From: Callorhinchus milii
Taxonomy: Eukaryota
Length of the DNA: 64,000 nucleotides
Reading direction: 5' to 3'
Assembly: GCF_018977255.1 (NCBI RefSeq)
Contig: NW_024704757.1
Location: 7,564,001-7,628,000, forward strand
In this document: piece by piece, positions 20,245 to 44,092 of the stretch
Layout: each line of letters begins with the position of its first letter
Numbering within the stretch: the first letter of the stretch is position 1
Notes under the pieces: generated by a model
What the model saw: the letters and a program-made list of their open reading frames with translations, nothing else
Databases searched by the model: none
What the model was told of the DNA's origin: nothing
Program-made: the position numbers and the translations under genes

Positions 20245-20720
20245 GGCGCGCTGTCACCGCCTGACAGGAGCCGGGAGGGAGGGAGGGGGAGGGGGGGGGG
20301 GGAGGGAGGGGAAGAAGGAATAAAGTGGCTAATGAAGAGCTGAAGCACAGAGGAGCCGCTCAGCCGCCGCCACAGCTTCGGCCTCGTTCAGTCCCTGACA
20401 ACGCGAGATGGCTGCAGCCCTCCCTCCCACTACCGGAGCGCCAGATAGCAACGCCGCTCCCCATTGGTTGGCGGCTGCCGCCGGCACCGACCCAGCAATG
20501 ATCGGCCTTTCTGATTGGCGGGAGTGTGGGAGGGTGGGGGCGCCCGCCGGGGGTCACGGTCAGGGCGCCCAAACCGCGAGTACGCATGCGTCGAACCAGC
20601 TCTGCCTGACCCCCCCCCCCCATCCGCTACTGGGAGTCGTTGTCTTTCCGTCTCCTCGCCGCTTCCTAACTGTGCGCATGCGGAGAAGGTGGGTCTGAAG
20701 GAGTCTGGGAGTTGTAGTGT
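20245..20720 (-). promoter_or_regulatory. GID4 CpG-island promoter and 5' UTR
   Basis: CpG-rich. CCAAT boxes (ATTGG at 20463-20467 and 20514-20518); NRF1-like palindromes ACGCATGCGT 20582-20591 and TGCGCATGCG 20673-20682; ZNF143/THAP11-type ACTACAACTCCCAG at 20705-20718 (minus). Confidence 0.8.
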
Positions 20721-21109
20721 ATGTGATGTCACTCTGGCTACATGTGACAAATATTTTGGAAGACACGCAATGTAATGGGTTCATCCAATGAGCCGTCGAA
20801 TGTCGCTCAAGCCCCTTTTGGTTTAAAAAATGTAAATGATTTGATTATTTCAGTCCAACTTGTTAAATTGTAATCCCTATTTCTGCTGCTGGTTTTGTAT
20901 AAAATATATATTAACTATGATAATAGCCCCAAAAAATATACGGTCAATTCGTTTTACAGTACATTCTGTGACGCGCTTCGAGACGTCTCGAAGACGTGAT
21001 GAGGCGCCTTATCAAATATAGGGATTATTATGGTACTGGGTTAGTGCGTGGTACGTCCATCCAATGTGAAAAGTGCTATACAAATGGTTCCGCCATTGTC
21101 TCTCACCCC

Positions 21110-21470
21110 CGGCCGCCAAGACCCTCATCCACACATTAATCACCATCCAGGCTCTACGCAAACTCCCTGCTTGTCGGCCTCCCCAATTCCTCCCTCCATA
21201 GACTGCAGATCATCCAGAACTCTTCACACCAGGCTCTGGCGACCCTGCCACCCCATCCTCGCCCGACTCCACTGGCTTCCCATCACACAGAGGATATGGT
21301 TCAAGATCCTGGTCCTCAGCTTCAGAGCTCTCCATGGCTTCGCTCCTCCCTACCTTTGTGACCTCCTAAATTGCTGCTAACCTGTCCGCTCCCTCCCGGT
21401 CTGTGGGCTCCAGCCTGCATCACATCCCCTGCCATGCCAGCTTCACCATTGGCGGGCGGGCCTTCATTGC
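21110..21470 (+). mobile_element. L2 fragment (duplicate at ~30973-31333)
   Basis: HPILARLHWLPITQRIWFKILVL motif. Confidence 0.85.
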
Positions 21471-21799
21471 CTAATCTCCAATTTCAAGTCATTTCCCATC
21501 CAGTATTTAACCAATTCCCCCAAATAATCAAATGAACAAAGAATTCTGGTTGGCTGAAACAGCCGTTAATACATTTTAATTTTTTTGTGAGTGATAGTTT
21601 AAACAGATTACAGAGGAGATGAAAAAAGAGAAGTGAAATCTAAACTGGAATCAAACAGGCAACGATTTGGCACCAAACATGTTCTGAGGAAAGAGTCTGT
21701 GACATGCCTCAGAGTAAGAGTTCAAAAGCAGAGATAGTATTTGCAATAATAAAGCCCGCACCACATGATTTAATTCCTTCAAAAAATAATAATAAATTG

Positions 21800-22314
21800 G
21801 TCATCCAAAAGGTAGCGTGCAGATGTCGCTCGCAAGGCTCGTACTGTTTCTCCACACCAGTTAAAATTTGTGAAGCATACGCGACTGGCATAATGGTCCC
21901 TTGAACATCCTGGCATAAAACTGCTGCTAGACTTTCTGCTGTTCCGGCAACTTCCAAGTGGAAGGACTGATGAGGGTCTGGGTACACCAGACATGTCGCT
22001 TGCATAACTACCATTTTCAGCTGTTCAAAGAAGGTTGTATGAACTTCTTCCCAGAGTTGGATGAGATCATCAGAATGCTTTTTGAGTAACTCGTATAGAG
22101 GTTTAGCTAGTTTGGCAAACTGAGGATTGAAAGAGCGTTGATATCCAACCAGTCCAAGAAACGATCGTAGCGCTGTTTTGCACACTGGTAGGGGAAGTCA
22201 TTGAATATTATTAACCTTGTAGCAGTCCGGGGAGCGTCCTTCTGATGATAAATGTACTCTGAGGAAATTAACCTCCGAATGCAGAATTTGAGCTTTGTGT
22301 GGGTTCATTTTCAA
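21800..22314 (-). mobile_element. Degenerate LTR-element/retrovirus-like pol fragment (RT thumb plus connection/RNase H-like domain), copy A
   Basis: Translation LKMNPHKAQILHSEVNFL...IQ*LPLPVCKTALRSFLGLVGYQR...YPDPHQSFHLEVA...PVAYASQILTGVEKQYEPCERHL; one in-frame stop; no LTRs seen. Confidence 0.85.
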
Positions 22315-22404
22315 TTTTGATTCATATAAACAAAATTAACAACTTAATGTTTACAATTTTATGCAGCTCTGCCTTAAAGCGTTTCATTACATATATCATA
22401 TTCT

Positions 22405-22900
22405 AACAGTAGTGGCGGAGTCGAGCAATGTTACAGAGGTGAGGGAAGGCAGAGCGGGTCATGGCTTCGATGTGGGGAAGAAAAGACAGTTGAGGGTCGA
22501 ACAAGACACCGAGGTTCCTGACTGGCTTTGGTGAGTTGAAGTGTGTAACCATGGAGGTTGATGCTGCCAGAGCCTGAGGTGCTGAGGCGCTGGCGAGAGC
22601 CAATCAGGAGAGCCTCAGTCTTGTTCACATTCAACTGTTGGAAATTTGCCCTCATCCAGGACTTGATGTCCGACAGACAGTCTGTCAGGACATCAGTGGT
22701 CCCGGAGTTGAGGGTGGAGGCAGAGAGATAGAGTTGGGTGTCAACCACATACATATGGAAGTTGACCTCGTGTCTGCGGATGATATCACCAAGGGGGAGC
22801 ATATAGATATTAAAGAGGAGAGGGCCAAGGACAGAGCCCTGGGGGACGCCAGATGTGACAGTGCGGGGGCTGGAGGAGAAACTGTTAGAAGCAACTTTTC
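22405..22900 (-). mobile_element. L2 RT fragment (duplicate at ~32268-32763)
   Basis: [23 protein letters not shown]...YVVDTQLY. Confidence 0.9.
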
Positions 22901-23178
22901 TACAGTTGAATGTGAACAAGACTTGCAGACATGATAAGGCGCTATATCAAATGCAAGGAATATTATTATTATTATTATTATCCAATAAAGCTTTCAGCAG
23001 TTCTTTTCCATTCTAACATTCTTATTAAGATTTGAGATTATAATGTGTGTGCAAATGTTTTAGAGGTAATAACGTGTGTGAATGTGTGTATGTGTCTATA
23101 TATATATGTACATGTATGTGTTCATATGTGGATCTGAGCATTTGTATACCTAAGTGTGTACCTTTAAGAGGTTTCCTG

Positions 23179-24195
23179 TCACTGTTCTCCATCAGGGAAC
23201 AGATATATGGGCTTTGGGTAACCAAAGAGGGTAAAGTCAGGTTTGTAAAGTTGATATAACTTTTCCCTCCAAGGTTTTGGAATGATCTTGAACCATTGCT
23301 CCACGTAGCTGGTGGTTGTTTGGTTTGGATATTTGGATGGGAATTCAAAATATTTTTCTGCATTTAGGAGTTGGAGCAAGTAAGCGGTGTCTTCATCCAA
23401 TGTCTCTAATTTACCAATAAAATCATACTTGATATGACACGGGTGACAGAGCCGGTACATCTGGCGCCAGTGGTCATCAAAAGCAATCTCCTTCTCAGTT
23501 TGGGTATCCAACAAATACTGGACAAAATGAGAGAAGGTGGGTTTGACGCCCTCTTCTTCTGCTTTCTCAGCAGAAATGGGAGGGTGGGAGATATTTCCAT
23601 ACATCTTGAGCATCCTGAATGAATAAGGGTAGAATACTTTGTTTACACGTGCAATCTTATCTCGGAATGCAGAAATCAGCCTGACAAAGGGATCTCGCAC
23701 AAATAGAAACTTCTTGTAATCCTTCAGCTTGTTGAGAACCGTGTCTCTGTTTACTTTTCTTTGCAGTCTGGTGAAGTAATTATGGACAAAATCTTGGTTG
23801 ATACTTTCTGGTTCGTGAAATCCTAAATTGTTATTCAGCACAAAGAGGACTCGCTTCCACTGCGTACAGGCCACTTTGGGAACAAAACAGTAGATCACCT
23901 TGAGTTTGTCGATTACAATTAAATTCCTAAACTCTTTGTTTGGAATTTTGGTAAAGTTGCGACTTTTCCCTGGGAAGCTATATTCAGAATCTGTGCACAG
24001 ATCCTCTAGTCTTTTCCTCCTTTCTTCCTGCACCTGTCTTGGAGCGGCTTTGGACCTGGCAACTCTGAGGTAGAAGGCATGAATATCTGAGATCGCACTC
24101 TTGGGCATATCTCCCATCCTTCCTGGAAACAAGTATAGAATAGCCAGCATAACAATGACCAGGAAGCCGAAATGACAGAATCTTACTTGTCGCAT
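23179..24195 (-). CDS. CHST12: Carbohydrate sulfotransferase 12-like (chondroitin 4-O-sulfotransferase 2 family), copy A, 338 aa, single coding exon
   Basis: N-terminal type II TM segment; 5'-PSB motif PKVACTQWKR; 3'-PB motif RDPFVRLISAF; HWRQMYRLCHPC..YDFIGKLETLDED and DFTLFGYPKP as in CHST12. Splice acceptor tttttggtttaaAG at 24258-24257. Orthologue vs paralogue is uncertain. Confidence 0.88.
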   Translation of the reverse strand: MRQVRFCHFGFLVIVMLAILYLFPGRMGDMPKSAISDIHAFYLRVARSKAAPRQVQEERRKRLEDLCTDSEYSFPGKSRNFTKIPNKEFRNLIVIDKLKVIYCFVPKVACTQWKRVLFVLNNNLGFHEPESINQDFVHNYFTRLQRKVNRDTVLNKLKDYKKFLFVRDPFVRLISAFRDKIARVNKVFYPYSFRMLKMYGNISHPPISAEKAEEEGVKPTFSHFVQYLLDTQTEKEIAFDDHWRQMYRLCHPCHIKYDFIGKLETLDEDTAYLLQLLNAEKYFEFPSKYPNQTTTSYVEQWFKIIPKPWREKLYQLYKPDFTLFGYPKPIYLFPDGEQ

Positions 24196-24887
24196 TTTTC
24201 CACTTAATCAGATGATACGTCCAATGACAAAATCTTCAAATGGACAGTTCTTCCACCTTTAAACCAAAAACATAATGACACATGAGCTGATAGGAGCTGA
24301 TAAATATCCCAAATAACACCGTAGATTTCATCAATCCAATTGCCTCCATAATCCCAATTCACACCCCTCTGCCCCCACTCCCTACAACCCCTTCCCGGAG
24401 TCCCTTTGCCTTGCCCCTTTCCTCCTTCAAGGTCCATCTCGAGGCCTTCCTCTTTCACCATGTCTTCGGTCATCTTTCCACTCCTGCCCCATTGCCCACC
24501 ACCCTTCTTAATCCAAGCCCCAGCTGAGGTGCAAAACATCAACTGTCCAGCGTCGTGGGATGCCCTTCTGACTTGAAAGGTGCTATATAAGGGCAATTAT
24601 TTGTTAATGTATCATTTCTCTCTATGTCTCTTGAACTCTCATCCATTGACACCCATATTTGTGAATATGATGGACAGAAATAGTTGCTGACTGTGGATTG
24701 ACTGACTCAACAAATGACATATCTGACACATGAAGTAAAACTCGAATCATCAGGAACAGTGGACAAACAGCTCCTACTGTATGGGGAGCATTGGTATGAG
24801 TCTCCTCTATCACTTTACTGTAACTTCCTCTATCACTTTGCTGTTTACTTATGCCCACAAAATACACAGTCAATCCACTTTGCAGTA

Positions 24888-25193
24888 TATAATAATCCTT
24901 GCATTTGATATAGCGCTTTTCAGATCTTCTAGAAGTCTCAAAGCGCTTCATAGAATAGACTGTAAAGTGAACTGACTGTATATTTGTGGGCGAAATGCGG
25001 CAGCCAATTGCGCACAGCAATGTCTCACAAACAGTCGTGGATTGAAATGACCAATTTATTATTGGTTATTTTTGAGGGATTATTATCAGGCATGTGGAGT
25101 AAGGAAACTTGCCCAAGGTATCGCCCTGCCGGGAATCAAATACAGGTCTCTCGCTTGCAAATGAGTGCACTAACCACTGAGCTACAGGACTCC
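24888..25193 (-). mobile_element. tRNA-derived SINE (duplicate at ~34734-35040)
   Basis: GGAGTCCTGTAGCTCAGTGGTTAG head and L2-like tail. Confidence 0.88.
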
Positions 25194-25374
25194 AGAACTA
25201 AAAACAAGCTCACAGGTATATTCTGTGAAGTGCTTTGAGGCATCTGTAGGATGTGATAAGGTATCAATGGATGAGAGTTCAAGTGAGATAGAGAAAAATA
25301 TATAAATTAACAGCAACAAATTGCACTTATAAAGCACCTTATCAAGGAAATTATTATTATTGTTATTACAGAGC

Positions 25375-25870
25375 AGGTCACTTGACAACATGACAGAATA
25401 GAAAGTTTTAAATCCAAATTTGCAGAAGGCAAAGTTAGGAGGCACAGTAAATTGTTAGAGATGGGAGCAGGAAGTTACAAGGGATTTAGACAGATTAAGT
25501 GAGTGCGCAAAACTGTGGCAGATGGAATTTATTTTGGAAGGTGTGAGTCATCCACTATGGATCCAAAAATGACAAAATAGAATATTTTCTAAATGGGGAG
25601 AAATTAAAAACTGTGGAAAAGCAAAGGGATTTGGGTGTCCACGTATACAAATCACTAAAAACAAGCTCAACAGGTACACAAAGTTATCAAAAGTTTATGA
25701 AATGTTGGCCTTTATCTCAAGGGGGGTGGATTATGAAGGAGAGGAACTGATGCTTCAACTATATAGAGCTTTGGTCAGACCTCATCTGGAGCCTGTGATC
25801 AGTTTTGGACACCGCACCTCAGATTCACCAGAATGATTACATGGTTAAATTGGGAGGACGGGTTGCGCAA
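25375..25870 (+). mobile_element. Degenerate CR1 fragment (duplicate at ~35225-35740)
   Basis: LQLYRALVRPHLE motif and RT-like upstream sequence. Confidence 0.8.
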
Positions 25871-26574
25871 TTTCCTCCAGGGTTGAAGGTTGATTTGCTG
25901 TAATAAATCCAAATTGTTAATTGCTCTTTCTATTTCTGGTGAAAATAGATCGAACGATAATCGTTCCCCTTTCGTTTCGTGATCATTTTCACCAATTTCG
26001 CATCAGATTTACATTCGATTGAGTAAATATTTCCAAGGAAGCAATGAGATCTTCAGACTTAGTCTCATGCCTGGACCTCTCTGGCTGCTTGGATTGTAGT
26101 CATTTGTTCTATTCTGGAAACTTTTCCCTGTTGCCACTCTCACAGTTCACAAGTCTCACTCGTTACACATCACCTGCAGCTTCCAACCCGGATTTGCATT
26201 GTTTTGTGGTTAAAAAACACACACACACACACACAAGTCTTATTCTTTTGGGAGAGCATCGAGTTCAGGTTAGCGTTTGGAAGAAAGAGATCGTCACTTT
26301 CCTGGCAACTCAACCTGAGCCCATGGATCAGCCGCGACCGAGCAACAACCAAACCAGATGGGAGTAAAAGATTTATTTTGTTTATTACCTGAAATATCTC
26401 AAACCGGGACTGAACCGTGTGGATCGGGAGCGGCGCTGGAACCGGAGATGGTGACTGTGTTTGTCGTCAAATGGGTGATAGACGTGGTATTGTGTTGAGT
26501 GGGAGCGGCAATACCTCTCCCACCTGCGGATTCCGGATGTTATCTGATTACTTGTGTCAGTGGGGAGTGTGGGT

Positions 26575-27968
26575 TGGGCTGGAGCTGATGGTTGGCATTG
26601 GAGGCTGAGCCTGAGGGTTGGAGCTGAGGGTTGGGGGTGGGGGGCTGGGGGCTGGAGGTGGGGGCTGGGGGCTGGAGGTGGAGCTGGGGGTTGGGGGCTG
26701 GAGGTTGGAGGTGGGGGCTGGGGTTGGGGGCTGGAGGTTGGAGGTGGGGGCTGGAGATTGGGGGCTGGAAGTTGGGGCTGGAGATTGGGGGCTGGAGGTT
26801 GGAGGTGGGGGCTGGAGGTTGGAGGTGGGGGCTGGAGGTTGGGGCTGCAGGTTGGAGGTGGGGGCTGGAGATTGGGGGCTGGAGGTTGGAGGTGGGGGCT
26901 GGGGGTTGGGGGCTGGAGGTTGGAGGTGGGGGCTGGAGATTGGGGGCTGGAGGTTGGAGCTGGAGATTGGGGGCTGGAGGTTGGAGGTTGGGGGCTGGAG
27001 GTTGGAGGTGGGGGCTGGAGGTTGGGGTGGGGGCTGGAGGTTGGGGGCTGGAGGTTGGAGGTGGGGGCTGGAGGTTGGGGCTGGAGGTTGGTGGGGGCTG
27101 GAGATTGGGGGCTGGAGGTTGAGGCTGGGGCTGGAGGTTGAGGGTGGAGGTTGGGGCTGGAGGTTGAGGCTGGGCTGGAGGTTGGAGGTTGGGGCTGGAG
27201 GTTGGGGGCTGGAGGTTGGAGGTGGGGGCTGGGGGCTGGATGTTGGAGGTGGGGGCTGGAGGTGGGGGCTGGGGTTGGGGGCTGGAGGTTGGAGGTGGGG
27301 GCTGGAGATTGGGGGCTGGAGGTTGGAGGTGGGGGCTGGAGATTGGGGTTGGAGGTGGGGGCTGGAGGTTGGAGGTGGGGCTGGAGGTTGGGGGCTGGAG
27401 GTTGGGGGCTGGAGGTTGGAGGTGGGGGTTGGAGGTTGGGGGCTGGAGGTTGGAGGTGGGGCTGGAGGTTGGAGGTGGAGGTTGGGGGCTGGAGGTTGGG
27501 GGCTGGAGGTTGGGGTGGGGGCTGGAGGTTGGGGGCTGGAGGTTGGAGGTTGGGGGCTGGAGATTGGGGTTGGAGGTTGGGGGCTGGAGGTTGGAGGTGG
27601 AGGTTGGGGGCTGGAGGTTGGGGGCTGGAGGTTGGAGGTTGGGGGCTGGGGGTTGGAGGTGGGGGCTGGAGGTTGGAGGTGGGGCTGGGGTTGGAGGTGG
27701 GGGCTGGAGGTTGGAGGTGGGGGCTGGAGGTTGGGGATTGACATTGACATTCCACCTCTGAGAGTTGGACAGCAGTGTTAACAAACATTACCTGGAGTGT
27801 GCGTTTGTGGTTGGGGCTGGGGGTTGGGATTGGAGGCTGGAGGTTGGGGATTGGAGGCTGAGGGTTGGAGGTTGGGATCTGGGGTTGGAGGTTGGGATTG
27901 GGGCTGGAGGTTGGGATGGGGGGCTGGGGGTTGGAGGTTGGGATAGGGGGCTGGGGGTTGGGGGTTTG
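26575..27968 (+). repeat. G-rich minisatellite (GGAGGTT/GGGGGCT/GGAGGTG heptamer-like units), interrupted by a 67-bp cassette at 27743-27809
   Basis: Read directly from sequence; produces the spurious Pro-rich and Gly/Trp-rich ORFs. Confidence 0.95.
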
Positions 27969-28520
27969 GACACCAGAGCCCCAGGCGTGGGGCTTGGGAG
28001 ACATCACCCTTCAAATGGGTGGAGTGGGCGGCACAGGCACAACACATTCCTGAATCGTTTCTTCTCAGTGGAAAATCCACAGTATTTTTTTGTTAAAAAC
28101 AGGTATTTTTTGTTACAACAGAGCCGGATAATTAAGATAGCAATTCATCTCTTTGAGGTGTGGTGTTGCTGAGCGGTGCAGTGGGTCTCTGGCTCTCCCG
28201 AGTGACAACTCCAAGACCACGTAGCAGCGATTTTATCCACAATCTCTTCACTCTTCGCTGACGAACAAGATCTTAAAAATCACGTTTTTTTTAAAAAATG
28301 GTTATTTAGGTGATAGAGACGTAATATTGAATGCAAGGACTATTATATTATCATTAAGATCTATTTCTTCCACTGTTTCCAGCCACCTCCACCCCCCCCC
28401 AACACATGTGTCCACATTGGGAAGCCATCATCAGACTTGAGTATCCAAACCAGATTGACATTCCACCTCTGAGAGTTGGACAGCAGTGTTAACAAACATT
28501 ACCTGGAGTGTGCGTTTGTG

Positions 28521-30418
28521 GTTGGGGCTGGGGGTTGGGATTGGAGGCTGGGGATTGGAGGCTGAGGGTTGGAGGTTGGGATCTGGGGTTGGAGGTTGGG
28601 ATTGGGGGCTGGGGGTTGGAGGTTGGGATTGGAGGCTGGGGGTTGGAGGTTGGGGTTGGGGGCTGGAGGTTGGGATGGGGGGCTGGGATTGGAGGTTGGG
28701 ATTGGAGGCTGGGTGTTGGAGGTTCGGATGGGGGGTTGGAGGCTGGGGATTGGAGGCTGAGGGTTGGAGGTTGGGATCAGGGGTTGGAGGTTGGGATTGG
28801 GGGCTGGGGGTTGGAGGTTGGGATTGGAGGCTGGGGGTTGGAGGTTGGGGGCTGGAGGTTGGGATGGGGTTGGGATGGGGGGCTGGGGGTTGGAGGTTGG
28901 GATGGTGGGTTGGAGGTTGGGATGGGGGGCTGGGGGTTGGGATGGGGGGCTGGGGGTTGGAGGTTGGAGGTTGGAATGGGGGGCTGGGGGTTGGAGGTTG
29001 GGATGGGGGGCTGGGGGTTGGAGGTTGGGATTGGAGGCTGGGGGTTGGGATGGGGGGCTGGGGATTCGAGGTTGGGATTGGAGGCTGGGTGTTGGGAGGT
29101 TGGGATGGGGGCTGGGGTTGGGATTGGGGGCTGGGGGTTGGGATGGGGGGCTGGGGGTTGGAGGCTGGGGGTTGGAGGTTGGGATGGGGGGCTGGGGTTG
29201 GAGGTTGGGATGGGGGCTGGGGGTTGGAGGTTGGGATGGGGGGCTGGTGGTTGGAGGTTGGGATGGGGGGCTGGTGGTTGGAGGTTGGGTTGGGGGCTGG
29301 GGGTTGGAATGGGGGCTGGGGGTTGGGATTGGGGGCTGGAGGTTGGGATGGGGGGCTGGGGGTTGGAGGCTGGGGGGGGTTGGAGGCTGGGGGCGGTTGG
29401 AGGCTGGGGGGGGTTGGAGGTTGAGATGGGGGCTGGGGGTTGGAGGTTGGGATGGGGGCTGGTGGTTGGAGGCTGGGGGTTGGAGGTTGGTAGGGGGTTG
29501 GGGTGGGGGCTGGTGGTTGGGTGTTGGGATGGGGGGCTGGGGGTTGGAGGTTGGGATGGGGCGCTGGAGGTTGGGATTGGGGGCTGGTGGTTGGAGGTTG
29601 GGATTGGGGGCTGGGGTTTGGAGGCTGGGGGTTTGGAGGTTGGGATGGGGGGCTGGTGGTTGGAATGGGGGTTGGAGGTTGGGATGGGGCGCTGGGGGTT
29701 GGGATGGAGGGCTGGGGGTTGGAGGTTGGGATGGGGGCTGGGGGTTGGGATGGGGGCTGGTGGTTGGAGGTTAGGATGGGGGTTGGAGGTTGGGATGGGG
29801 GGCTGGGGGTTGGGATGGGGGGCTGGGGGTTGGGATGGGGGGCTGGGGTTTGGGATGGGGGCTGGGGTTGGAGGTTGGGATGGGGGGTTGGTGGTTGAGA
29901 TGGGGGGCTGTCGGTTGGGATGGGGGGTTGGAGGTTGGGCTGGGGCTGGGAGTTGGGATGGGGGGGTTGGGATGGGGGGCTGGGGGTTGGGATGGGGGCT
30001 GGGGGTTGGAGGTTGGGATGGGGGCTGGGGGTTGGGATGGGGGGCTGGGGGTTGGAGGTTGGGATGGGGGGCTGGGGGTTGGAATGGGGGCTGGGGGTTG
30101 GGATGGGGGCTGGGGGTTGGAGGTTGGGATGGGGGGCTGGGGGTTGGGATGGGGGGCTGGGGGTTGGGATGGGGGCTGGGGGTTGGAGTTGGGATGGGGG
30201 CTGGGGGTTGGGATGGGGGCTGGGGTTGGGATGGGGGCTGGGGGTTGGGATGGGGGGCTGGGGGTTGGGGGATGGGGGGCTGGGGGTTGGATGGGGTTGG
30301 GTTGGATGGGGCTGGGGGTTGGGATGGGGGGTTGGAGGTTGGGATGGGGGCTGGGGGTTGGGATGGGGGGCTGGGGGTTGGGATGGGGGGCTGGGGGTTG
30401 GGATGGGGGGCTGGGGGT
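28521..30418 (+). repeat. ~1.9-kb G-rich minisatellite at the duplication junction (GGGAT-GGGGGGCT-GGGGGTT/GGAGGTT units)
   Basis: Read directly from sequence; no counterpart after unit B. Confidence 0.95.
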
Positions 30419-31662
30419 TGGTTCGACGCATGCGTACCGCGAGTACGCATGCGTCGAACCAGCTCTGCCTGACCCCCCCCCCCCATCCGCTACTGGGAGT
30501 CGTTGTCTTTCCGTCTCCTCGCCGCTTCCTAACTGTGCGCATGCGGAGAAGGTGGGTCTGAAGGAGTCTGGGAGTTGTAGTGTATGTGATGTCACTCTGG
30601 CTACATGTGACAAATATTTTGGAAGACACGCAATGTAATGGGTTCATCCAATGAACCGTCGAATGTCGCTCAAGACCCTTTTGGTTTAAAAAATGTAAAT
30701 GATTTGATTATTTCAGTCCAACTTGTTAAATTGTAATCCCTATTTCTGCTGCTGGTTTTGTATAAAATATATATTAACTATGATAATAGCCCCAAAAAAT
30801 ATACGGTCAATTCGCTTTACAGTACATTCTGTGACGCGCTTCGAGACGTCTCGAAGACGTGATGAGGCGCCTTATCAAATATAGGGATTATTATGGTACT
30901 GGGTTAGTGCGTGGTACGTCCATTCAACGTGAAAAGTGCTATACAAATGGTTCCGCCATTGTCTCTCACCCCCGGCCGCCAAGACCCTCATCCACACATT
31001 AATCACCATCCAGGCTCTACGCAAACTCCCTGCTTGTCGGCCTCCCCAATTCCTCCCTCCATAGGCTGCAGATCATCCAGAACTCTTCACACCAGGCTCT
31101 GGCGACCCTGCCACCCCATCCTCGCCCGACTCCACTGGCTTCCCATCACACAGAGGATATGGTTCAAGATCCTGGTCCTCAGCTTCAGAGCTCTCCATGG
31201 CTTCGCTCCTCCCTACCTTTGTGACCTCCTAAATTGCTACTAACCTGTCCGCTCCTCCCGGTCTGTGGGCTCCAGCCTGCATCACATCCCCTGCCATGCC
31301 AGCTTCACCATTGGCGGGCGGGCCTTCATTGCCTAATCTCCAATTTCAAGTCATTTCCCATCCAGTATTTAACCAATTCCCCCAAATAATCAAATGAACA
31401 AAGAATTCTGGTTGGCTGAAACAGCCGTTAATACATTTTAATTTTTTTTGTGAGTGATAGTTTAAACAGATTACAGAGGAGATGAAAAAAGAGAAGTGAA
31501 ATCTAAACTGGAATCAAACAGGCAACGATTTGGCACCAAACATGTTCTGAGGAAAGAGTCTGTGACATGCCTCAGAGTAAGAGTTCAAAAGCAGAGATAG
31601 TATTTGCAATAATAAAGCCCGCACCACATGATTTAATTCCTTCAAAAAATAATAATAAATTG

Positions 31663-32177
31663 GTCATCCAAAAGGTAGCGTGCAGATGTCGCTCGCAAGG
31701 CTCGTACTGTTTCTCCACACCAGTTAAAATTTGTGAAGCATACGCGACTGGCATAATGGTCCCTTGAACATCCTGGCATAAAACTGCTGCTAGACTTTCT
31801 GCTGTTCCGGCAACTTCCAAGTGGAAGGACTGATGAGGGTCTGGGTACACCAGACATGTCGCTTGCATAACTACCATTTTCAGCTGTTCAAAGAAGGTTG
31901 TATGAACTTCTTCCCAGAGTTGGATGAGATCATCAGAATGCTTTTTGAGTAACTCGTATAGAGGTTTAGCTAGTTTGGCAAACTGAGGATTGAAAGAGCG
32001 TTGATATCCAACCAGTCCAAGAAACGATCGTAGCGCTGTTTTGCACACTGGTAGGGGAAGTCATTGAATATTATTAACCTTGTAGCAGTCCGGGGAGCGT
32101 CCTTCTGATGATAAATGTACTCTGAGGAAATTAACCTCCGAATGCAGAATTTGAGCTTTGTGTGGGTTCATTTTCAA
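31663..32177 (-). mobile_element. Retrovirus-like pol fragment, copy B
   Basis: Duplicate of 21800-22314 (ORF 31572-32048 identical in the track). Confidence 0.85.
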
Positions 32178-33024
32178 TTTTGATTCATATAAACAAAATT
32201 AACAACTTAATGTTTACAATTTTATGCAGCTCTGCCTTAAAGCGTTTCATTACATATATCATATTCTAACAGTAGTGGCGGAGTCGAGCAATGTTACAGA
32301 GGTGAGGGAAGGCAGAGCGGGTCATGGCTTCGATGTGGGGAAGAAAAGACAGTTGAGGGTCGAACAAGACACCGAGGTTCCTGACTGGCTTTGGTGAGTT
32401 GAAGTGTGTAACCATGGAGGTTGATGCTGCCAGAGCCTGAGGTGCTGAGGCGCTGGCGAGAGCCAATCAGGAGGGCCTCAGTCTTGTTCACATTCAACTG
32501 TTGGAAATTTGCCCTCATCCAGGACTTGATGTCCGACAGACAGTCTGTCAGGACATCAGTGGTCCTGGAGTTGAGGGTGGAGGCAGAGAGATAGAGTTGG
32601 GTGTCAACCACATACATATGGAAGTTGACCTCGTGTCTGCGGATGATATCACCAAGGGGGAGCATGTAGATATTAAAGAGGAGAGGGCCAAGGACAGAGC
32701 CCTGGGGGACGCCAGATGTGACAGTGCGGGGGCTGGAGGAGAAACTGTTAGAAGCAACTTTTCTACAGTTGAATGTGAACAAGACTTGCAGACATGATAA
32801 GGCGCTATATCAAATGCAAGGAATATTATTATTATTATCCAATAAAGCTTTCAGCAGTTCTTTTCCATTCTAACATTCTTATTAAGATTTGAGATTATGT
32901 GTGTGCAAATGTTTTAGAGGTGTGTGAATGTGTGTATATGTCTATATATATATGTACATGTATGTGTTCATATGTGGATCTGAGCATTTGTATACCTAAG
33001 TGTGTACCTTTAAGAGGTTTCCTG

Positions 33025-34041
33025 TCACTGTTCTCCATCAGGGAACAGATATATGGGCTTTGGGTAACCAAAGAGGGTAAAGTCAGGTTTGTAAAGTTGA
33101 TATAACTTTTCCCTCCAAGGTTTTGGAATGATCTTGAACCATTGCTCCACGTAGCTGGTGGTTGTTTGGTTTGGATATTTGGATGGGAATTCAAAATATT
33201 TTTCTGCATTTAGGAGTTGGAGCAAGTAAGCGGTGTCTTCATCCAATGTCTCTAATTTACCAATAAAATCATACTTGATATGACACGGGTGACAGAGCCG
33301 GTACATCTGGCGCCAGTGGTCATCAAAAGCAATCTCCTTCTCAGTTTGGGTATCCAACAAATACTGGACAAAATGAGAGAAGGTGGGTTTGACGCCCTCT
33401 TCTTCTGCTTTCTCAGCAGAAATGGGAGGGTGGGAGATATTTCCATACATCTTGAGCATCCTGAATGAATAAGGGTAGAATACTTTGTTTACACGTGCAA
33501 TCTTATCTCGGAATGCAGAAATCAGCCTGACAAAGGGATCTCGCACAAATAGAAACTTCTTGTAATCCTTCAGCTTGTTGAGAACCGTGTCTCTGTTTAC
33601 TTTTCTTTGCAGTCTGGTGAAGTAATTATGGACAAAATCTTGGTTGATACTTTCTGGTTCGTGAAATCCTAAATTGTTATTCAGCACAAAGAGGACTCGC
33701 TTCCACTGCGTACAGGCCACTTTGGGAACAAAACAGTAGATCACCTTGAGTTTGTCGATTACAATTAAATTCCTAAACTCGTTGTTTGGAATTTTGGTAA
33801 AGTTGCGACTTTTCCCTGGGAAGCTATATTCAGAATCTGTGCACAGATCCTCTAGTCTTTTCCTCCTTTCTTCCTGCACCTGTCTTGGAGCGGCTTTGGA
33901 CCTGGCAACTCTGAGGTAGAAGGCATGAATATCTGAGATCGCACTCTTGGGCATATCTCCCATCCTTCCTGGAAACAAGTATAGAATAGCCAGCATAACA
34001 ATGACCAGGAAGCCGAAATGACAGAATCTTACTTGTCGCAT
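33025..34041 (-). CDS. CHST12: Carbohydrate sulfotransferase 12-like, copy B, 338 aa
   Basis: Same protein as copy A except K87N (plus-strand 23935 t vs 33781 g); offset 9846 bp. Confidence 0.88.
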   Translation of the reverse strand: MRQVRFCHFGFLVIVMLAILYLFPGRMGDMPKSAISDIHAFYLRVARSKAAPRQVQEERRKRLEDLCTDSEYSFPGKSRNFTKIPNNEFRNLIVIDKLKVIYCFVPKVACTQWKRVLFVLNNNLGFHEPESINQDFVHNYFTRLQRKVNRDTVLNKLKDYKKFLFVRDPFVRLISAFRDKIARVNKVFYPYSFRMLKMYGNISHPPISAEKAEEEGVKPTFSHFVQYLLDTQTEKEIAFDDHWRQMYRLCHPCHIKYDFIGKLETLDEDTAYLLQLLNAEKYFEFPSKYPNQTTTSYVEQWFKIIPKPWREKLYQLYKPDFTLFGYPKPIYLFPDGEQ

Positions 34042-36433
34042 TTTTCCACTTAATCAGATGATACGTCCAATGACAAAATCTTCAAATGGACAGTTCTTCC
34101 ACCTTTAAACCAAAAACATAATGACACATGAGCTGATAGGAGCTGATAAATATCCCAAATAACACCGTAGATTTCATCAATCCAATTGCCTCCATAATCC
34201 CAATTCACACCCCTCTGCCCCCACTCCCTACAACCCCTTCCCGGAGTCCCTTTGCCTTGCCCCTTTCCTCCTTCAAGGTCCATCTCGAGGCCTTCCTCTT
34301 TCACCATGTCTTCGGTCATCTTTCCACTCCTGCCCCATTGCCCACCACCCTTCTTAATCCAAGCCCCAGCTGAGGTGCAAAACATCAACTGTCCAGCGTC
34401 GTGGGATGCCCTTCTGACTTGAAAGGTGCTATATAAGGGCAATTATTTGTTAATGTATCATTTCTCTCTATGTCTCTTGAACTCTCATCCATTGACACCC
34501 ATATTTGTGAATATGATGGACAGAAATAGTTGCTGACTGTGGATTGACTGACTCAACAAATGACATATCTGACACATGAAGTAAAACTCGAATCATCAGG
34601 AACAGTGGACAAACAGCTCCTACTGTATGGGGAGCATTGGTATGAGTCTCCTCTATCACTTTACTGTAACTTCCTCTATCACTTTGCTGTTTACTTATGC
34701 CCACAAAATACACAGTCAATCCACTTTGCAGTATATAATAATCCTTACATTTGATATAGCGCTTTTCAGATCTTCTAGAAGTCTCAAAGCGCTTCATAGA
34801 ATAGACTGTAAAGTGAACTGACTGTATATTTGTGGGCGAAATGCGGCAGCCAATTGCGCACAGCAATGTCTCACAAACAGTCGTGGATTGAAATGACCAA
34901 TTTATTATTGGTTATTTTTGAGGGATTATTATCAGGCATGTGGAGTAAGGAAACTTGCCCAAGGTATCGCCCTGCCGGGAATCAAATACAGGTCTCTCGC
35001 TTGCAAAGTGAGTGCATTAACCACTGAGCTACAGGACTCCAGAACTAAAAACAAGCTCACAGTATATTCTGTGAAGTGCTTTGAGGCATCTGTAGGATGT
35101 GATAAGGTATCAATGGATGAGAGTTCAAGTGAGATAGAGAAAAATATATAAATTAACAGCAACAAATTGCACTTATAAAGCACCTTATCAAGGAAATTAT
35201 TATTATTGTTATTACAGAGCAGGTCACTTCACAACATGACAGAAGAGAGAGTTTTAAATCCAAATTTGCAGAAGGCAAAGTTAGGAGGCACAGTAAATTG
35301 TTAGAGATGGGAGCAGGAAGTTACAAGGGATTTAGACAGATTAAGTGAGTGCGCAAAACTGTGGCAGATGGAATTTATTTTGGAAGGTGTGAGTCATCCA
35401 CTATGGATCCAAAAATGACAAAATAGAATATTTTCTAAATGGGGAGAAATTAAAAACTGTGGAAAAGCAAAGGGATTTGGGTGTCCACGTATACAAATCA
35501 CTAAAAACAAGCTCAACAGGTACACAAAGTTATCAAAAGTTTATGAAATGTTGGCCTTTATCTCAAGGCGGGTGGATTATGAAGGAGAGGAACTGATGCT
35601 TCAACTATATAGAGCTTTGGTCAGACCTCATCTGGAGCCTGTGATCAGTTTTGGGCACCGCACCTCAGAGGGGGCGCAACACAGGTTCACCAGAATGATT
35701 ACATGGTTAAATTGGGAGGACAGGTCACGCAGATTTCCTCCAGGGTAAAAGGTTGATTTGCTGTAATAAATCCAAATTGTTAATTGCTCTTTCTATTTCT
35801 GGTGAAAATAGATCGAACGATAATCGTTCCCCTTTCGTTTCGTGATCATTTTCACCAATTTCGCATCAGATTTACATTCGATTGAGTAAATATTTCCAAG
35901 GAAGCAATGAGATCTTCAGACTTAGTCTCATGCCTGGACCTCTCTGGCTGCTTGGATTGTAGTCATTTGTTCTATTCTGGAAACTTTTCCCTGTTGCCAC
36001 TCTCACAGTTCACAAGTCTCACTCGTTACACATCACCTGCAGCTTCCAACCCGGATTTGCATTGTTTTGTGGTTAAAAAACACACACACACACAAGTCTT
36101 ATTCTTTTGGGAGAGCATCGAGTTCAGGTTAGCGTTTGGAAGAAAGAGATCGTCACTTTCCTGGCAACTCAACCTGAGCCCATGGATCAGCCGCGACCGA
36201 GCAACAACCAAACCAGATGGGAGTAAAAGATTTATTTTGTTTATTACCTGAAATATCTCAAACCGGGACTGAACCGTGTGGATCGGGAGCGGCGCTGGAA
36301 CCGGAGATGGTGACTGTGTTTGTCGTCAAATGGGTGATAGACGTGGTATTGTGTTGAGTGGGAGCGGCAATACCTCTCCCACCTGCGGATTCCGGATGTT
36401 ATCTGATTACTTGTGTCAGTGGGGAGTGTGGGT

Positions 36434-37260
36434 TGGGCTGGAGCTGATGGTTGGCATTGGAGGCTGAGCCTGAGGGTTGGAGCTGGGGCTGAGGGTTGGG
36501 GGCTGGGGGTGGGGGCTGGAGGTTGGGGTTGGGGGCTGGAGGTTGGAGGTGGGGGCTGGGGTTGGAGGTGGGGGCTGGGGGTTGGAGGTGGGGCTGGGGT
36601 TGGAGGTGGGGGCTGGGGTTGGAGGTGGGGGCTGGGGTTGGGGGCTGGGGGTTGGAGGTGGGGGTGGAGGTTGGAGGTGGGGCTGGGGTTGGAGGTGGGG
36701 GCTGGGGTTGGAGGTGGGGGCTGGGGTTGGAGGTGGGGGCTGGGGGTTGGAGGTGGGGGCTGGGGTGGGAGGTGGGGGTTGGAGGTGGGGGCTGGGGGTT
36801 GGAGGTGGGGGCTGGGGTTGGAGGTGGGGGCTGGGGTTGGAGGTGGGGCTGGAGGTTGGGGATTGACATTGACTTTCCACCTCTGAGAGTTGGACAGCAG
36901 TGTTAACAAACATTACCTGGAGTGTGCGTTTGTGGTTGGGGCTGGGGGTTGGGATTGGAGGCTGGAGATTGGAGGCTGAGGGTTGGAGGTTGGGATTGGG
37001 GGCTGGGGGTTGGAGGTTGGGATTGGAGGCTGGGGGTTGGAGTTTGGGATCTGGGGTTGGAGGTTGGGATTGGGGGCTGGAGGTTGGGATGGGGGCTGGG
37101 GTTGGGATGGGGGGCTGGGGGTTGGAGGTTGGGATGGGGGGCTGGGGGTTGGAGGCTGGGGTTTGGAGGTTGGGATGGGGGGCTGGAGGTTGGGATGGGG
37201 GGCTGGGGGTTGGGATGGGGGGCTGGGGGTTGGGATTGGGGGCTGGGGGCTGGGGGTTTG
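36434..37260 (+). repeat. G-rich minisatellite in unit B, interrupted by the cassette at 36868-36934
   Basis: Paralogue of 26575-27968 with different tract lengths. Confidence 0.95.
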
Positions 37261-39207
37261 GACACCAGAGCCCCAGGCGTGGGGCTTGGGAGACACCACC
37301 CTTCAAATGGGGGGAGTGGGGGGCACAGACACAACACATTCCTGAATCATTTCTTCTCAGTGGAAAAGCCACGGTATTTTTTTGTTAAAAACAGGTATTT
37401 TTTGTTACAACAGAGCCGGATAATTAAGATAGCAATTCATCTCTTTGAGGTGTGGTGTTGCTGAGCGGTGCAGTGGGTCTCTGGCTCTCCCGAGTGACAA
37501 CTCCAAGACCACGTAGCAGCGATTTTATCCACAATCTCTTCACTCTTCGCTGACGAACAAGATCTTAAAAATCACGTTTTTTTTAAAAAAATGGTTATTT
37601 AGGTGATAGAGACGTAATATTGAATGCAAGGACTATTATATTATCATTAAGATCTATTTCTTCCACTGTTTCCAGCCACCTCCACCCCCCCACCCAACAC
37701 ATGTGTCCACATTGGGAAGCCATCATCAGACTTGAGTATCCAAACCAGATTGACATTCCACCTCTGAGAGTTGGACAGCAGTGTTAACAAACATTACCTG
37801 GAGTGTGCGTTTGTGAGCGTATGCTTTTATCATTGAGGTTTTATATTAAGAGTTCTCAGTATTTACTGCTGAAGCTTCACGCCTACTCCTGGGAGAGTTG
37901 CTGTTTGTTGGTTACTGTTACTGTGGGTTGAATTGGTGGCAGTGCATTCACACACTTAGGTTTTACAACATTACTCACCAAACCTCTCTCAAAATCATCC
38001 ATCAAACATTTGCTCATCAATGTGTGGCTATCCCTCAGAGGATAGAGATAGTGTGATTTTTCCTGGGAGTTCTCTGAAACTGGTGACTCACAACAATAAG
38101 ATAATAACCTTATATTTCTGAAATGCTGTGCACTGTCCAGCACCTTGGCATGTCCTCCCGATATGAGAGGCACTATACAAATGTAATCTTGTTGTTGTTG
38201 CACCTATGACATTAGAATATATGAAAGCGCTTCATTTTTTTTTGAAGTGGAGATGCTGCCTTTTTGCATGCAAGCAAAACAAGCAATGTATACACAAACT
38301 GCCATAAATGAGCCCTTATATGGAGAAGTGTTGGCCACTTTCTCTTTTCAAATACACTGGTGTCAAGGGATGGATTGCAGATGGGACGCACCTCGGTTTC
38401 TGATCTCATCCAGAGCTTCAAAAATTGCATCTCCTCAAGCAGAGCAGCAGCTTAGAATGAATGTGAGGCTTTAACCCACAACATCTGACTTCAACGAAAG
38501 GCGTTTCCCGTGAATTAAAATCTCGACACAACAACAAAAAAGATTTTGCTAATTTTTAAAAGGTGTAAGCCCTTTAATTTTTTATACATTTAAAATCTCA
38601 AGAGAGTTTAGAAAATCAAATAGCAATTAATTAATGAAAACCAGTATCACAAGAGGGTAGTAAGTGGGGCTTTCTGGTGACAAAATATACACTTTACAGT
38701 ATATTTTGTGAAGCGCTTTGAGACCTTGAAGACGTGATAAGGTGCTATATCAAATGCAAGGATTATTATTTTAAAACAAATTCATTTATTTAGTTTGAAC
38801 CCATTCCCAGTGCAAGTTCTCACTTGGAGAATCAATTCGTTGCCTGCAAAAACAGTCCTTTTAAAATCACAGCTTTAGTGGTAAATTGGAATTTTCTTTA
38901 TTGATCATTACCGCCAAGCTACCATTGTTATGATGAAAGCATTGACTCATACGAAAAAGAGAGTTATTTAAATATGAGCTTCAGAAATTAAATCAATCCA
39001 GTCAGTCATCCAAACATGGGGTTGGCTAATCTGACATAATACAACAGCAGCCTGGGAGCGCACACAAGTTTGTAATTTGTTGCTGTTGCTCCATACATAC
39101 AATAAAAAACAGCAACAAACATTTCATCTTAAAGGCATCGTCCATTGGTGCTGTCAGAGAATGTCCTTCCCTCACACAGAGTACCACATAAAGCTTCTCA
39201 TTGGAAA

Positions 39208-43428: not shown

Positions 43429-43807
43429 TCACAAAACAGAAATTGTTCTGTTACCATTGATATGTATTAGTAACCTGTTTTGCCAATGAAACAGATCTTT
43501 CGCACAGGTTGGTTTATATTTCATATTACATTTTGTACAAATTGTAAGTCCCTGAGCTATGCAAGTGGATTATAAATTGGATTTGACTTCGAGAACTAGT
43601 GCCGAGTGCTGACTGTGGATGTGAGTGAGTGAAACTGGTCAAACACTCAGCTGCTGAGAAAAGTTGTTTACACCCTGTGCACTGAGCCCCTCTCAATCAA
43701 TGTGCATTTCTCCAGGCGTTTACAACATTCTGTGAATGCTTTTGAGTGATAAAAGTATATTTCACACTTCCATGGAGCTGGCCACCTCACCCCCTTCAAT
43801 TGCAGGT

Positions 43808-44092
43808 CAGAGGACACAACCTGCAATTGAAGGGGAGAAATTCAGAAAAAAATCTATGGAAATTCTATTTCAGTGAACAAAGAGTGAACCTGTGGAACAG
43901 GTTACCTTAGGAGACGGTTGAAGGAGGAAATGTTGATTCCTCCAAACACAGATTAGATAGCTTTCTTTTAGGAAATAATATTATGGGATATAGTACATAG
44001 GTAGTTCAGGACATATGTCCATGCGACCTCCAGGAAGGTGAACTAGATGGACCTTGGTAATTTTTTCGTCTAGCATTTCTTATGTTCTTATG
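43808..44092 (+). mobile_element. 5'-truncated CR1 3' end
   Basis: Starts in an RGHNLQLKG-like ORF2 tail; ends 'ttcttatgttcttatg'. Confidence 0.8.

What the first reader, a model, noticed from the sequence alone, without database searches (positions are those of the whole stretch)
30419..30461. Perfect 19-bp fold-back hairpin exactly at the start of unit B
Seen: TGGTTCGACGCATGCGTAC-cgcga-GTACGCATGCGTCGAACCA. The right arm and loop copy GID4 promoter sequence (identity starts 20573=30436). The left arm is new, is the reverse complement of the right arm, and merges into the G-tract via 'ttgg'. Known: short inverted templated insertions are signatures of snap-back synthesis (polymerase theta end joining or MMBIR/FoSTeS). 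This argues for a real complex rearrangement rather than a simple haplotig overlap.
Basis: partly seen in the sequence, partly recalled or inferred. Interest (0 to 1): 0.7.

Follow-up and report, generated by a model that had tools for sequence, protein, structure and literature searches.

The report
Fold-back scar at gene-duplication joint
A perfect 19-base-pair hairpin sits exactly at the joint of a 10-kb tandem repeat of a sulfotransferase gene in this fish genome assembly; it is likely an ordinary DNA-repair scar made by fold-back copying and likely rare or private to the sequenced animal, but an assembly error remains a serious alternative because assembled data from four other sequencing runs do not show the joint.

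Summary
The hairpin is real in the assembly: 19-bp arms, 5-nt loop, at the joint of a 9,863-bp-period tandem duplication holding a whole carbohydrate-sulfotransferase gene. Only 14 bases are new: an inverted copy of adjacent GID4-upstream DNA, bounded by a 2-bp fold-back stem (AC/GT) and a 3-bp overlap (TGG) with a 1.9-kb G-rich minisatellite. This meets published snap-back SD-MMEJ criteria; a two-switch MMBIR path fits too. But the junction is unconfirmed: no contig from four whole-genome runs covers the new bases, and two run unbroken into the single-copy flank. The copies differ by 0.40%, and 4 of 5 readable substitutions vary between those runs, so A and B look like two alleles, the signature of a false haplotype duplication or of a join between homologs. 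For a real event: no gap, error-free junction, transition-rich differences. Against: the copies part at large haplotype differences, and a nearby gap-free repeat has a long-read error profile. Verdict: about 65% real (rare or private), 35% assembly error; a known scar either way. This scan noted similar private-or-artefact fold-back junctions elsewhere in this genome (unchecked).

The parts
30419..30461 (.). Perfect hairpin, 19-bp arms, 5-nt loop, at the duplication joint
30422..30435 (+). 14 new bases = reverse complement of 20582-20595 (inverted templated insertion)
   Evidence: covered by no contig in 4 of 4 runs
30419..30421 (+). 3-bp overlap (TGG) shared by the minisatellite end and the inverted donor (20596-20598)
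   Evidence: 15% of positions in the array would give >=3 bp, so weak on its own
30436..30444 (+). Fold-back primer: 2-bp stem AC/GT around a 5-nt loop; first bases of copy B (= 20573-20581)
20573..20598 (+). Donor of the hairpin in copy A, about 330 bases upstream of the presumed GID4 start codon; holds a 10-bp palindrome resembling an NRF1 site (motif recalled)
20610..20625 (-). C12 run plus ATCC whose complement matches the minisatellite unit in 14 of 16 bases, 10 nt beyond the right arm (inverted microhomeology)
   Evidence: equal or better score in 183 of 20000 random windows, 335 of 5000 GC-rich windows; post hoc
20573..28520 (+). Copy A of the tandem duplication
28521..30421 (+). 1.9-kb G-rich minisatellite (27 non-overlapping G4 consensus matches), an expanded form of the arrays at 27811-27965 and 36935-37257; holds the other breakpoint
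30436..37815 (+). Copy B; continues into unique DNA at 37816
23179..24195 (-). Intact single-exon ORF, 338 aa, Sulfotransfer_2 (CHST12-like by recall), copy A, K at residue 87
33025..34041 (-). Same ORF in copy B, N at residue 87 (one amino-acid difference)
28454..28520 (+). Second copy of a 67-bp direct repeat (others 27743-27809, 36868-36934, 37749-37815); in A it is followed by the long minisatellite, in B by unique DNA

Best explanation
The hairpin is likely a fold-back repair scar at the joint of a likely real but rare or private 10-kb tandem duplication, likely made when a broken end upstream of GID4 copied itself backwards and was then joined to a break in a G-rich minisatellite, probably on the other homolog. 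Steps: (shown) the joint is minisatellite / TGG / 14 inverted bases / AC / forward donor sequence. (Inferred) a resected end at 20573 left the bottom strand as a 3' tail ending in GT; this paired with an AC five bases back, was extended 17 nt, unwound, and its new 3' CCA annealed to a TGG at the 3' tail of the minisatellite, followed by fill-in: polymerase-theta-type snap-back end joining. (Inferred) the two ends came from different haplotypes, which is why the copies differ like alleles from 219 bases into the unit. The hairpin is a by-product; nothing shows a function.
For: All 3 SD-MMEJ criteria met: motif 19 bp, distal end 26 bp from the joint, primer 2 bp and microhomology 3 bp (criteria read in PMC5728401). 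Pol theta extends stem-loops from 2 terminal pairs; pairing of 1-3 bp across a 6-nt loop favoured; inverted insertions of 3-30 bp; commoner when end microhomology is poor (PMC11292364): here the first 13 donor bases share at most 2 bp with the last 60 nt of the array, and AC occurs 0 times in its 1,900 dinucleotides. Tandem-duplication joints with templated insertions depend on Pol theta in worms (PMC13031629). Joining between homologs seen in 4 of 34 informative deletions in Atm-null mouse testis, with local inverted insertions in others (10.1101/2020.06.23.168138). No gap: the assembly keeps a 25-N gap 677 kb away, none in the 1.53 Mb holding the joint. Both copies look well supported: 24 substitutions (18 transitions) and 10 indels (6 missing in B, 4 in A) in about 6 kb, against 26 deletions, 3 insertions and 10 substitutions in a nearby low-quality repeat; the 14 new bases are error-free and the last 100 nt of the array are regular.
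Against: No contig of 4 of 4 runs covers 30422-30435; in 2 of 4 a contig crosses 30436 into the GID4 flank. Allele-level divergence is what a false haplotype duplication always gives but a duplication from sister chromatids does not; the homolog step is an added assumption and the mouse precedent is a mutant. Copy A ends exactly where the two haplotypes differ most (array 1,177 vs 442 nt; an extra 67-bp-repeat unit). The 3-bp overlap is weak (15% by chance). Which polymerase acted cannot be read from sequence.
Confidence: 0.4

Rival explanations
1. Assembly error: copies A and B are the two haplotypes of one single-copy locus laid in tandem (heterotype false duplication). The contig of haplotype A ended in the long minisatellite, and a fold-back read end at the start of haplotype B was merged to it by gap filling, helped by the G-run/C-run likeness.
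For: Joint unseen in 4 of 4 runs, flank bridged in 2. Of 5 readable A/B substitutions 4 vary between runs; X1 shows the B letter at 5 of 5, X3 the A letter at 4 of 5; X2 has A's letter at 30655 and B's at 30675. Run-to-copy-B differences are of the same order as A/B. One-base homopolymer deletions unique to A and to B (all 4 runs disagree, the A case inferred from gap counts). False duplications arise at high heterozygosity and are sometimes joined by unsupported sequence from wrong gap filling (PMC9516828). A gap-free repeat with a long-read error profile lies 620 kb away; a 25-N gap is a mark of a long-read gap filler (recalled).
Against: Needs a short fold-back read end and a merge at the same spot; a random chimera between two places 10 kb apart is improbable. 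Fold-backs were virtually absent in the HiFi data and 0.55-0.6% of reads in nanopore gDNA tested in PMC12870357 (older PacBio chemistry not seen in the passages). No gap; new bases error-free; 0 of 7 N sites inspected had flanking haplotig-like overlaps. A GC-rich hairpin beside a G4 array may drop out of short-read contigs (depth 5.8 in X2 there).
Confidence: 0.35
2. Real, but made by replicative template switching (MMBIR/FoSTeS) started from the other side: the minisatellite's G-rich 3' end annealed in inverted orientation to the C-run upstream of GID4, primed at TGG, copied 16 nt backwards, made a U-turn on 2 bp (AC) and then copied the gene forwards.
For: Explains why this site was chosen: 14 of 16 bases of the array unit match the complement of 20610-20625 next to the priming TGG (0.5-0.9% of random windows, 6.7% of GC-rich ones). 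Microhomeology at about a third of PLP1 join-points (PMC6902434); inverted insertions templated within 100 bp and flanked by microhomology define the MMBIR signature (PMC8421209).
Against: The match needs a 10-nt loop-out, beyond the 2-nt gap allowed in PMC6902434; found post hoc; weak against the GC-rich control. Shares the lack of read support.
Confidence: 0.2
3. An older duplication common or fixed in the species, with A/B differences being paralogous and the joint lost from short-read contigs.
For: Both ORFs intact; contigs drop variants, so one letter per run is expected either way; X1 and X3 have holes over the joint.
Against: X4's 663-nt contig and X2's 301-nt contig cross the place where a joint would branch the graph; X2 carries a third combination of two sites 20 bases apart; X1 and X3 follow one copy's letters over 3 kb.
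Confidence: 0.05

Closest known systems
Snap-back SD-MMEJ / Pol theta inverted templated insertion (PMC5728401, passages; PMC11292364, abstract and passages)
   Same: 2-bp primer stem, 5-nt loop, 14-nt inverted insertion, 3-bp end microhomology, poor direct microhomology at the original end
   Different: Here it closes a 10-kb tandem duplication rather than a single cut; enzyme dependence and read support not shown
TMEJ-completed tandem duplications in tnsl-1 worms and tonsoku plants (PMC13031629, passages)
   Same: Head-to-tail duplication with a 1-20 bp flank-templated insertion at the joint
   Different: Those arise in inbred mutant lines; here the copies differ by 0.40% like two alleles
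MMBIR templated insertions and microhomeology joints (PMC8421209, PMC6902434; passages)
   Same: Inverted copy of a template within 100 bp, microhomology at both borders, imperfect match beside the priming site
   Different: The imperfect match needs a 10-nt gap; direction of synthesis cannot be told
Four-point template switch (PMC5453318, passages)
   Same: A fragment copied in reverse complement creates a perfect inverted repeat
   Different: The first jump is about 10 kb and point 4 precedes point 1, an order that paper did not observe among its local events
Heterotype false duplication (PMC9516828, passages)
   Same: Adjacent copies differing like alleles, ending at a highly divergent haplotype segment, absent in other data

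Membership tests
Snap-back SD-MMEJ junction | Repeat motif of at least 4 bp | tested here: met
   19 bp
Snap-back SD-MMEJ junction | Break-distal end of the motif within 30 bp of the rejoining site | tested here: met
   20598 is 26 bases from 20573
Snap-back SD-MMEJ junction | Primer repeat and microhomology repeat of at least 1 bp each | tested here: met
   AC/GT 2 bp; TGG 3 bp
Snap-back SD-MMEJ junction | Junction exists in genomic DNA | tested here: inconclusive
   0 of 4 other runs hold it, 2 informative; reads of the sequenced animal not examined
Snap-back SD-MMEJ junction | Dependence on polymerase theta | not testable with these tools
   needs genetics
MMBIR templated insertion | Insertion of >=10 bp, inverted copy of a template within 100 bp, microhomology at both borders | tested here: met
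   14 nt; template adjacent; 2 and 3 bp
MMBIR templated insertion | Microhomeology (>=5 bp, >=70%, gap <=2 nt) at the join-point | tested here: inconclusive
   14 of 16 match lies beyond a 10-nt gap; 6.7% of GC-rich windows score as well
Heterotype false duplication | Differences between copies are haplotype alleles | tested here: met
   4 of 5 readable substitutions vary between runs; contigs only, 7 of 34 differences readable
Heterotype false duplication | Assembly gap between the copies | tested here: not met
   no N in the window; nearest multi-N gap 677 kb away; the paper says most often, not always
Heterotype false duplication | Half depth on each copy; unsupported sequence or discordant pairs at the joint | not testable with these tools
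   no raw reads of the sequenced animal were offered or laid

The most novel reading that the evidence does not exclude
A whole gene was duplicated in one germline step by capturing both alleles in cis: the 3' end of a G-quadruplex-forming minisatellite on one homolog found an inverted C-run in the open GID4 upstream region of the other homolog, U-turned on two base pairs and copied the sulfotransferase gene, leaving K and N alleles side by side and an extra inverted NRF1-like site 4 kb upstream of copy A; such minisatellites would then be seeds of gene duplication in this lineage.
Probability: 0.12. Interest if true: 0.4.

Novelty: new member of a known kind. Interest (0 to 1): 0.16.

Why it matters
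If real, it is a base-resolved natural example of a gene duplicate at birth, closed by a textbook fold-back insertion and carrying two alleles in cis; useful as an instance, not a new mechanism. If false, it matters for annotation: both copies are listed as separate proteins in public collections, so the sulfotransferase count would be inflated by one, and it would show that a hairpin at a joint does not prove a rearrangement real.

Tried and rejected
Mobile-element or terminal hairpin: rejected, both arms derive from the local donor and the own-genome search found only copies A and B. Direct-repeat (loop-out) origin: explains only the 10-bp self-palindromic core, the inverted reading explains all 19. 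Depth as copy number: not usable (contig depths; no single-copy control laid). Holes over the joint in X1 and X3: no evidence either way; they may be filtered or GC drop-out. No RNA holder listed on record; no RNA run laid. An unplaced alternative haplotype: the spacer 27966-28520 has only the two C16 copies. Independent protein evidence for two copies: the only named cluster member has K87 plus one other change and says nothing on copy number. Single Ns as contig joins: rejected, the 6 of 11 inspected lie at homopolymer ends. Survey for other hairpin-bearing duplication joints: two other near-identical repeats examined (C20; C16 8.22 Mb), no fold-back seen at either by inspection of 60-nt flanks; 1.7 Mb is too little for a rate. 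Paper search with four terms found 0 papers; no search was made for this locus, so no claim is made on whether it is in print. No supplements were read. Earlier findings near the place or by sequence: none.

Full report
Observation. The inverted repeat is there as described: arms 30419-30437 and 30443-30461, loop of 5 nt. It folds far better than shuffles (z -8.7 and -7.6) while the donor site in copy A does not. Identity with copy A begins at 20573 = 30436, lasts 219 bases and has no leftward match. Only 14 bases (30422-30435) are new; they are the reverse complement of 20582-20595. They are bounded by AC (donor 20573-20574, pairing with the GT five bases on) and by TGG, which fits both the minisatellite and the inverted donor. 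In 1.704 Mb of this chromosome piece, 10 perfect non-simple hairpins have arms >=17 and loops <=12, 4 of them arms >=19, this one included: hairpins as such are not rare here, but one at the joint, with an arm missing from the donor, is not chance.

Setting. Self-comparison shows a direct duplication, A 20573-28520 and B 30436-37815, period 9,863. Each copy holds an intact 338-aa Sulfotransfer_2 ORF on the minus strand, differing in one residue; a near-identical protein is named carbohydrate sulfotransferase of Callorhinchus milii; 'CHST12-like' is my recall. GID4-family exons lie to the left on the same strand, so the left breakpoint is about 330 bases upstream of the presumed GID4 start. On the right each copy has two G-rich arrays and two copies of a 67-bp repeat. 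In B the second repeat leads into unique DNA; in A it leads into a third, 1.9-kb array that starts like the second one. Copy A therefore comes from a haplotype with an extra repeat unit and much longer arrays (1,177 vs 442 nt), and it stops inside the long array, at the hairpin.

How the copies differ. Over 20573-26600 there are 24 substitutions in 6,005 aligned bases (0.40%, 18 transitions) and 10 internal indels. Four runs that look like whole-genome data (one study, four sample codes, 0.74-0.77 of the words) were laid as contigs on 30380-34300 and 30392-30770; 4 of the 24 listed runs were laid. Repeats swamped and 67 rows of differences were not shown, so only 7 of the 34 differences could be read. 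Of 5 substitutions, 4 vary between runs (30655, 30675, 31239, 33781); 30815 is B-like in all (inferred from mismatch counts). X1 shows B's letter at 5 of 5, X3 A's at 4 of 5, and X2 combines A's 30655 with B's 30675. All four have A's state at one homopolymer and B's at another, and all four differ from both copies at 31531. Contigs drop variants, so this is not genotyping, but the simplest reading is that A and B are two alleles of a single-copy locus.

The joint in other data. No contig of 4 of 4 runs covers 30422-30435. In X2 (depth 5.8) and X4 (depth 16.6) a contig crosses 30436 and continues with the GID4 flank of copy A; array contigs stop at 30421; X1 and X3 have holes there and are uninformative. 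A GC-rich hairpin next to a G4 array may drop out, so this shows non-detection, not absence. It does argue against a common or fixed duplication.

Mechanism if real. The joint meets the three SD-MMEJ criteria (PMC5728401, passages) and matches Pol theta stem-loop extension from two terminal pairs, with insertions of 3-30 bp favoured when ends lack microhomology (PMC11292364, abstract and passages); the first 13 donor bases share at most 2 bp with the array's last 60 nt. Both ends would be 3' tails, as end joining needs. A second path fits the same letters: the array's 3' end invades backwards, since the complement of 20610-20625 matches the array unit in 14 of 16 bases 10 nt beyond the TGG. 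That score is reached by 183 of 20,000 random windows, 51 of 10,582 sliding windows in 1-26500 (the site itself included) and 335 of 5,000 GC-rich windows, and it was found post hoc: a hint only. Precedents: PMC6902434 and PMC8421209 (passages), PMC13031629 (passages), PMC5453318 (passages). Allele-level divergence needs ends from two homologs or later exchange; joining between homologs and local inverted insertions were seen in Atm-null mouse testis (10.1101/2020.06.23.168138, passages and section 9).

Real or assembly error. For real: the assembly keeps gaps (one 25-N run in 1.704 Mb) but has none in the 1.53 Mb that holds the joint, only isolated single Ns, the nearest 137 kb away; no haplotig-like overlap flanks the 7 N sites inspected of 12; the new bases are error-free, the last 100 nt of the array are regular though other parts of it are as irregular as, or more than, the other arrays; and the differences look like true variants. 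For error: allele-like copies that part at a large haplotype difference are the pattern of heterotype false duplication, sometimes joined by wrongly filled gaps (PMC9516828, passages); a second gap-free repeat at C16:8216634-8225037 has 26 deletions, 3 insertions and 10 substitutions in 3 kb, a long-read error profile (that reading is mine), so unsupported duplicates probably exist in this assembly; and the same G-run/C-run likeness could let a gap filler merge a fold-back read end with the array. Fold-back reads are documented, mostly for nanopore (PMC12870357, passages). My weighing, not a computation: 0.65 real (0.40 snap-back, 0.20 two-switch, 0.05 common), 0.35 artefact.

Verdict. Observation confirmed; interpretation partly supported. 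A known kind of scar at an unconfirmed, probably rare duplication; no sign of function. Earlier notes of this scan describe several other fold-back or inverted junctions in this genome as private or artefactual (unchecked AI notes, not support). Interest 0.16.

Noticed in passing
window 27743-28520 and 36868-37815: A 67-bp direct repeat brackets a unit of G-rich array plus about 490 unique bases; copy A appears to come from a haplotype with a further, expanded unit, i.e. a second small copy-number variant beside the gene's 5' end.
   Followed up: partly
G000:C16:8216634-8225037 (L127-L128): Gap-free 3-kb direct repeat 2.5 kb apart whose second copy has 26 small deletions against 10 substitutions and ends in a SINE-like tail: likely a poorly supported or false duplicate.
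   Followed up: partly
G000:C20:1242086-1252749 (L004-L005): Head-to-tail 5.33-kb duplication of another sulfotransferase gene, 99.8% identical, 1-bp overlap at the joint inside a short TAACA-like tail, no insertion; a third relative lies 5 kb on.
   Followed up: partly
G000:C16:7379123-7379190 (L014): Perfect 68-bp palindrome with no loop (34-bp arms), non-simple sequence.
   Followed up: no
window 43791-43835: Perfect 17-bp inverted repeat with an 11-nt loop.
   Followed up: no
window 25809-25885 vs 35655-35748: Cluster of 6 substitutions, a 16-bp indel and a 1-bp indel between copies A and B within about 80 bases of a LINE-like remnant; possibly a conversion tract or a further template switch.
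   Followed up: no
window 20582, 20673, 30426, 30445, 30536, 55225: NRF1-like palindromes (motif recalled); the hairpin adds a second one 19 bases from the first in copy B.
   Followed up: no
G000:C16:6638061-6639077: A 72%-identical paralogue of the duplicated sulfotransferase about 950 kb away on the same piece.
   Followed up: no
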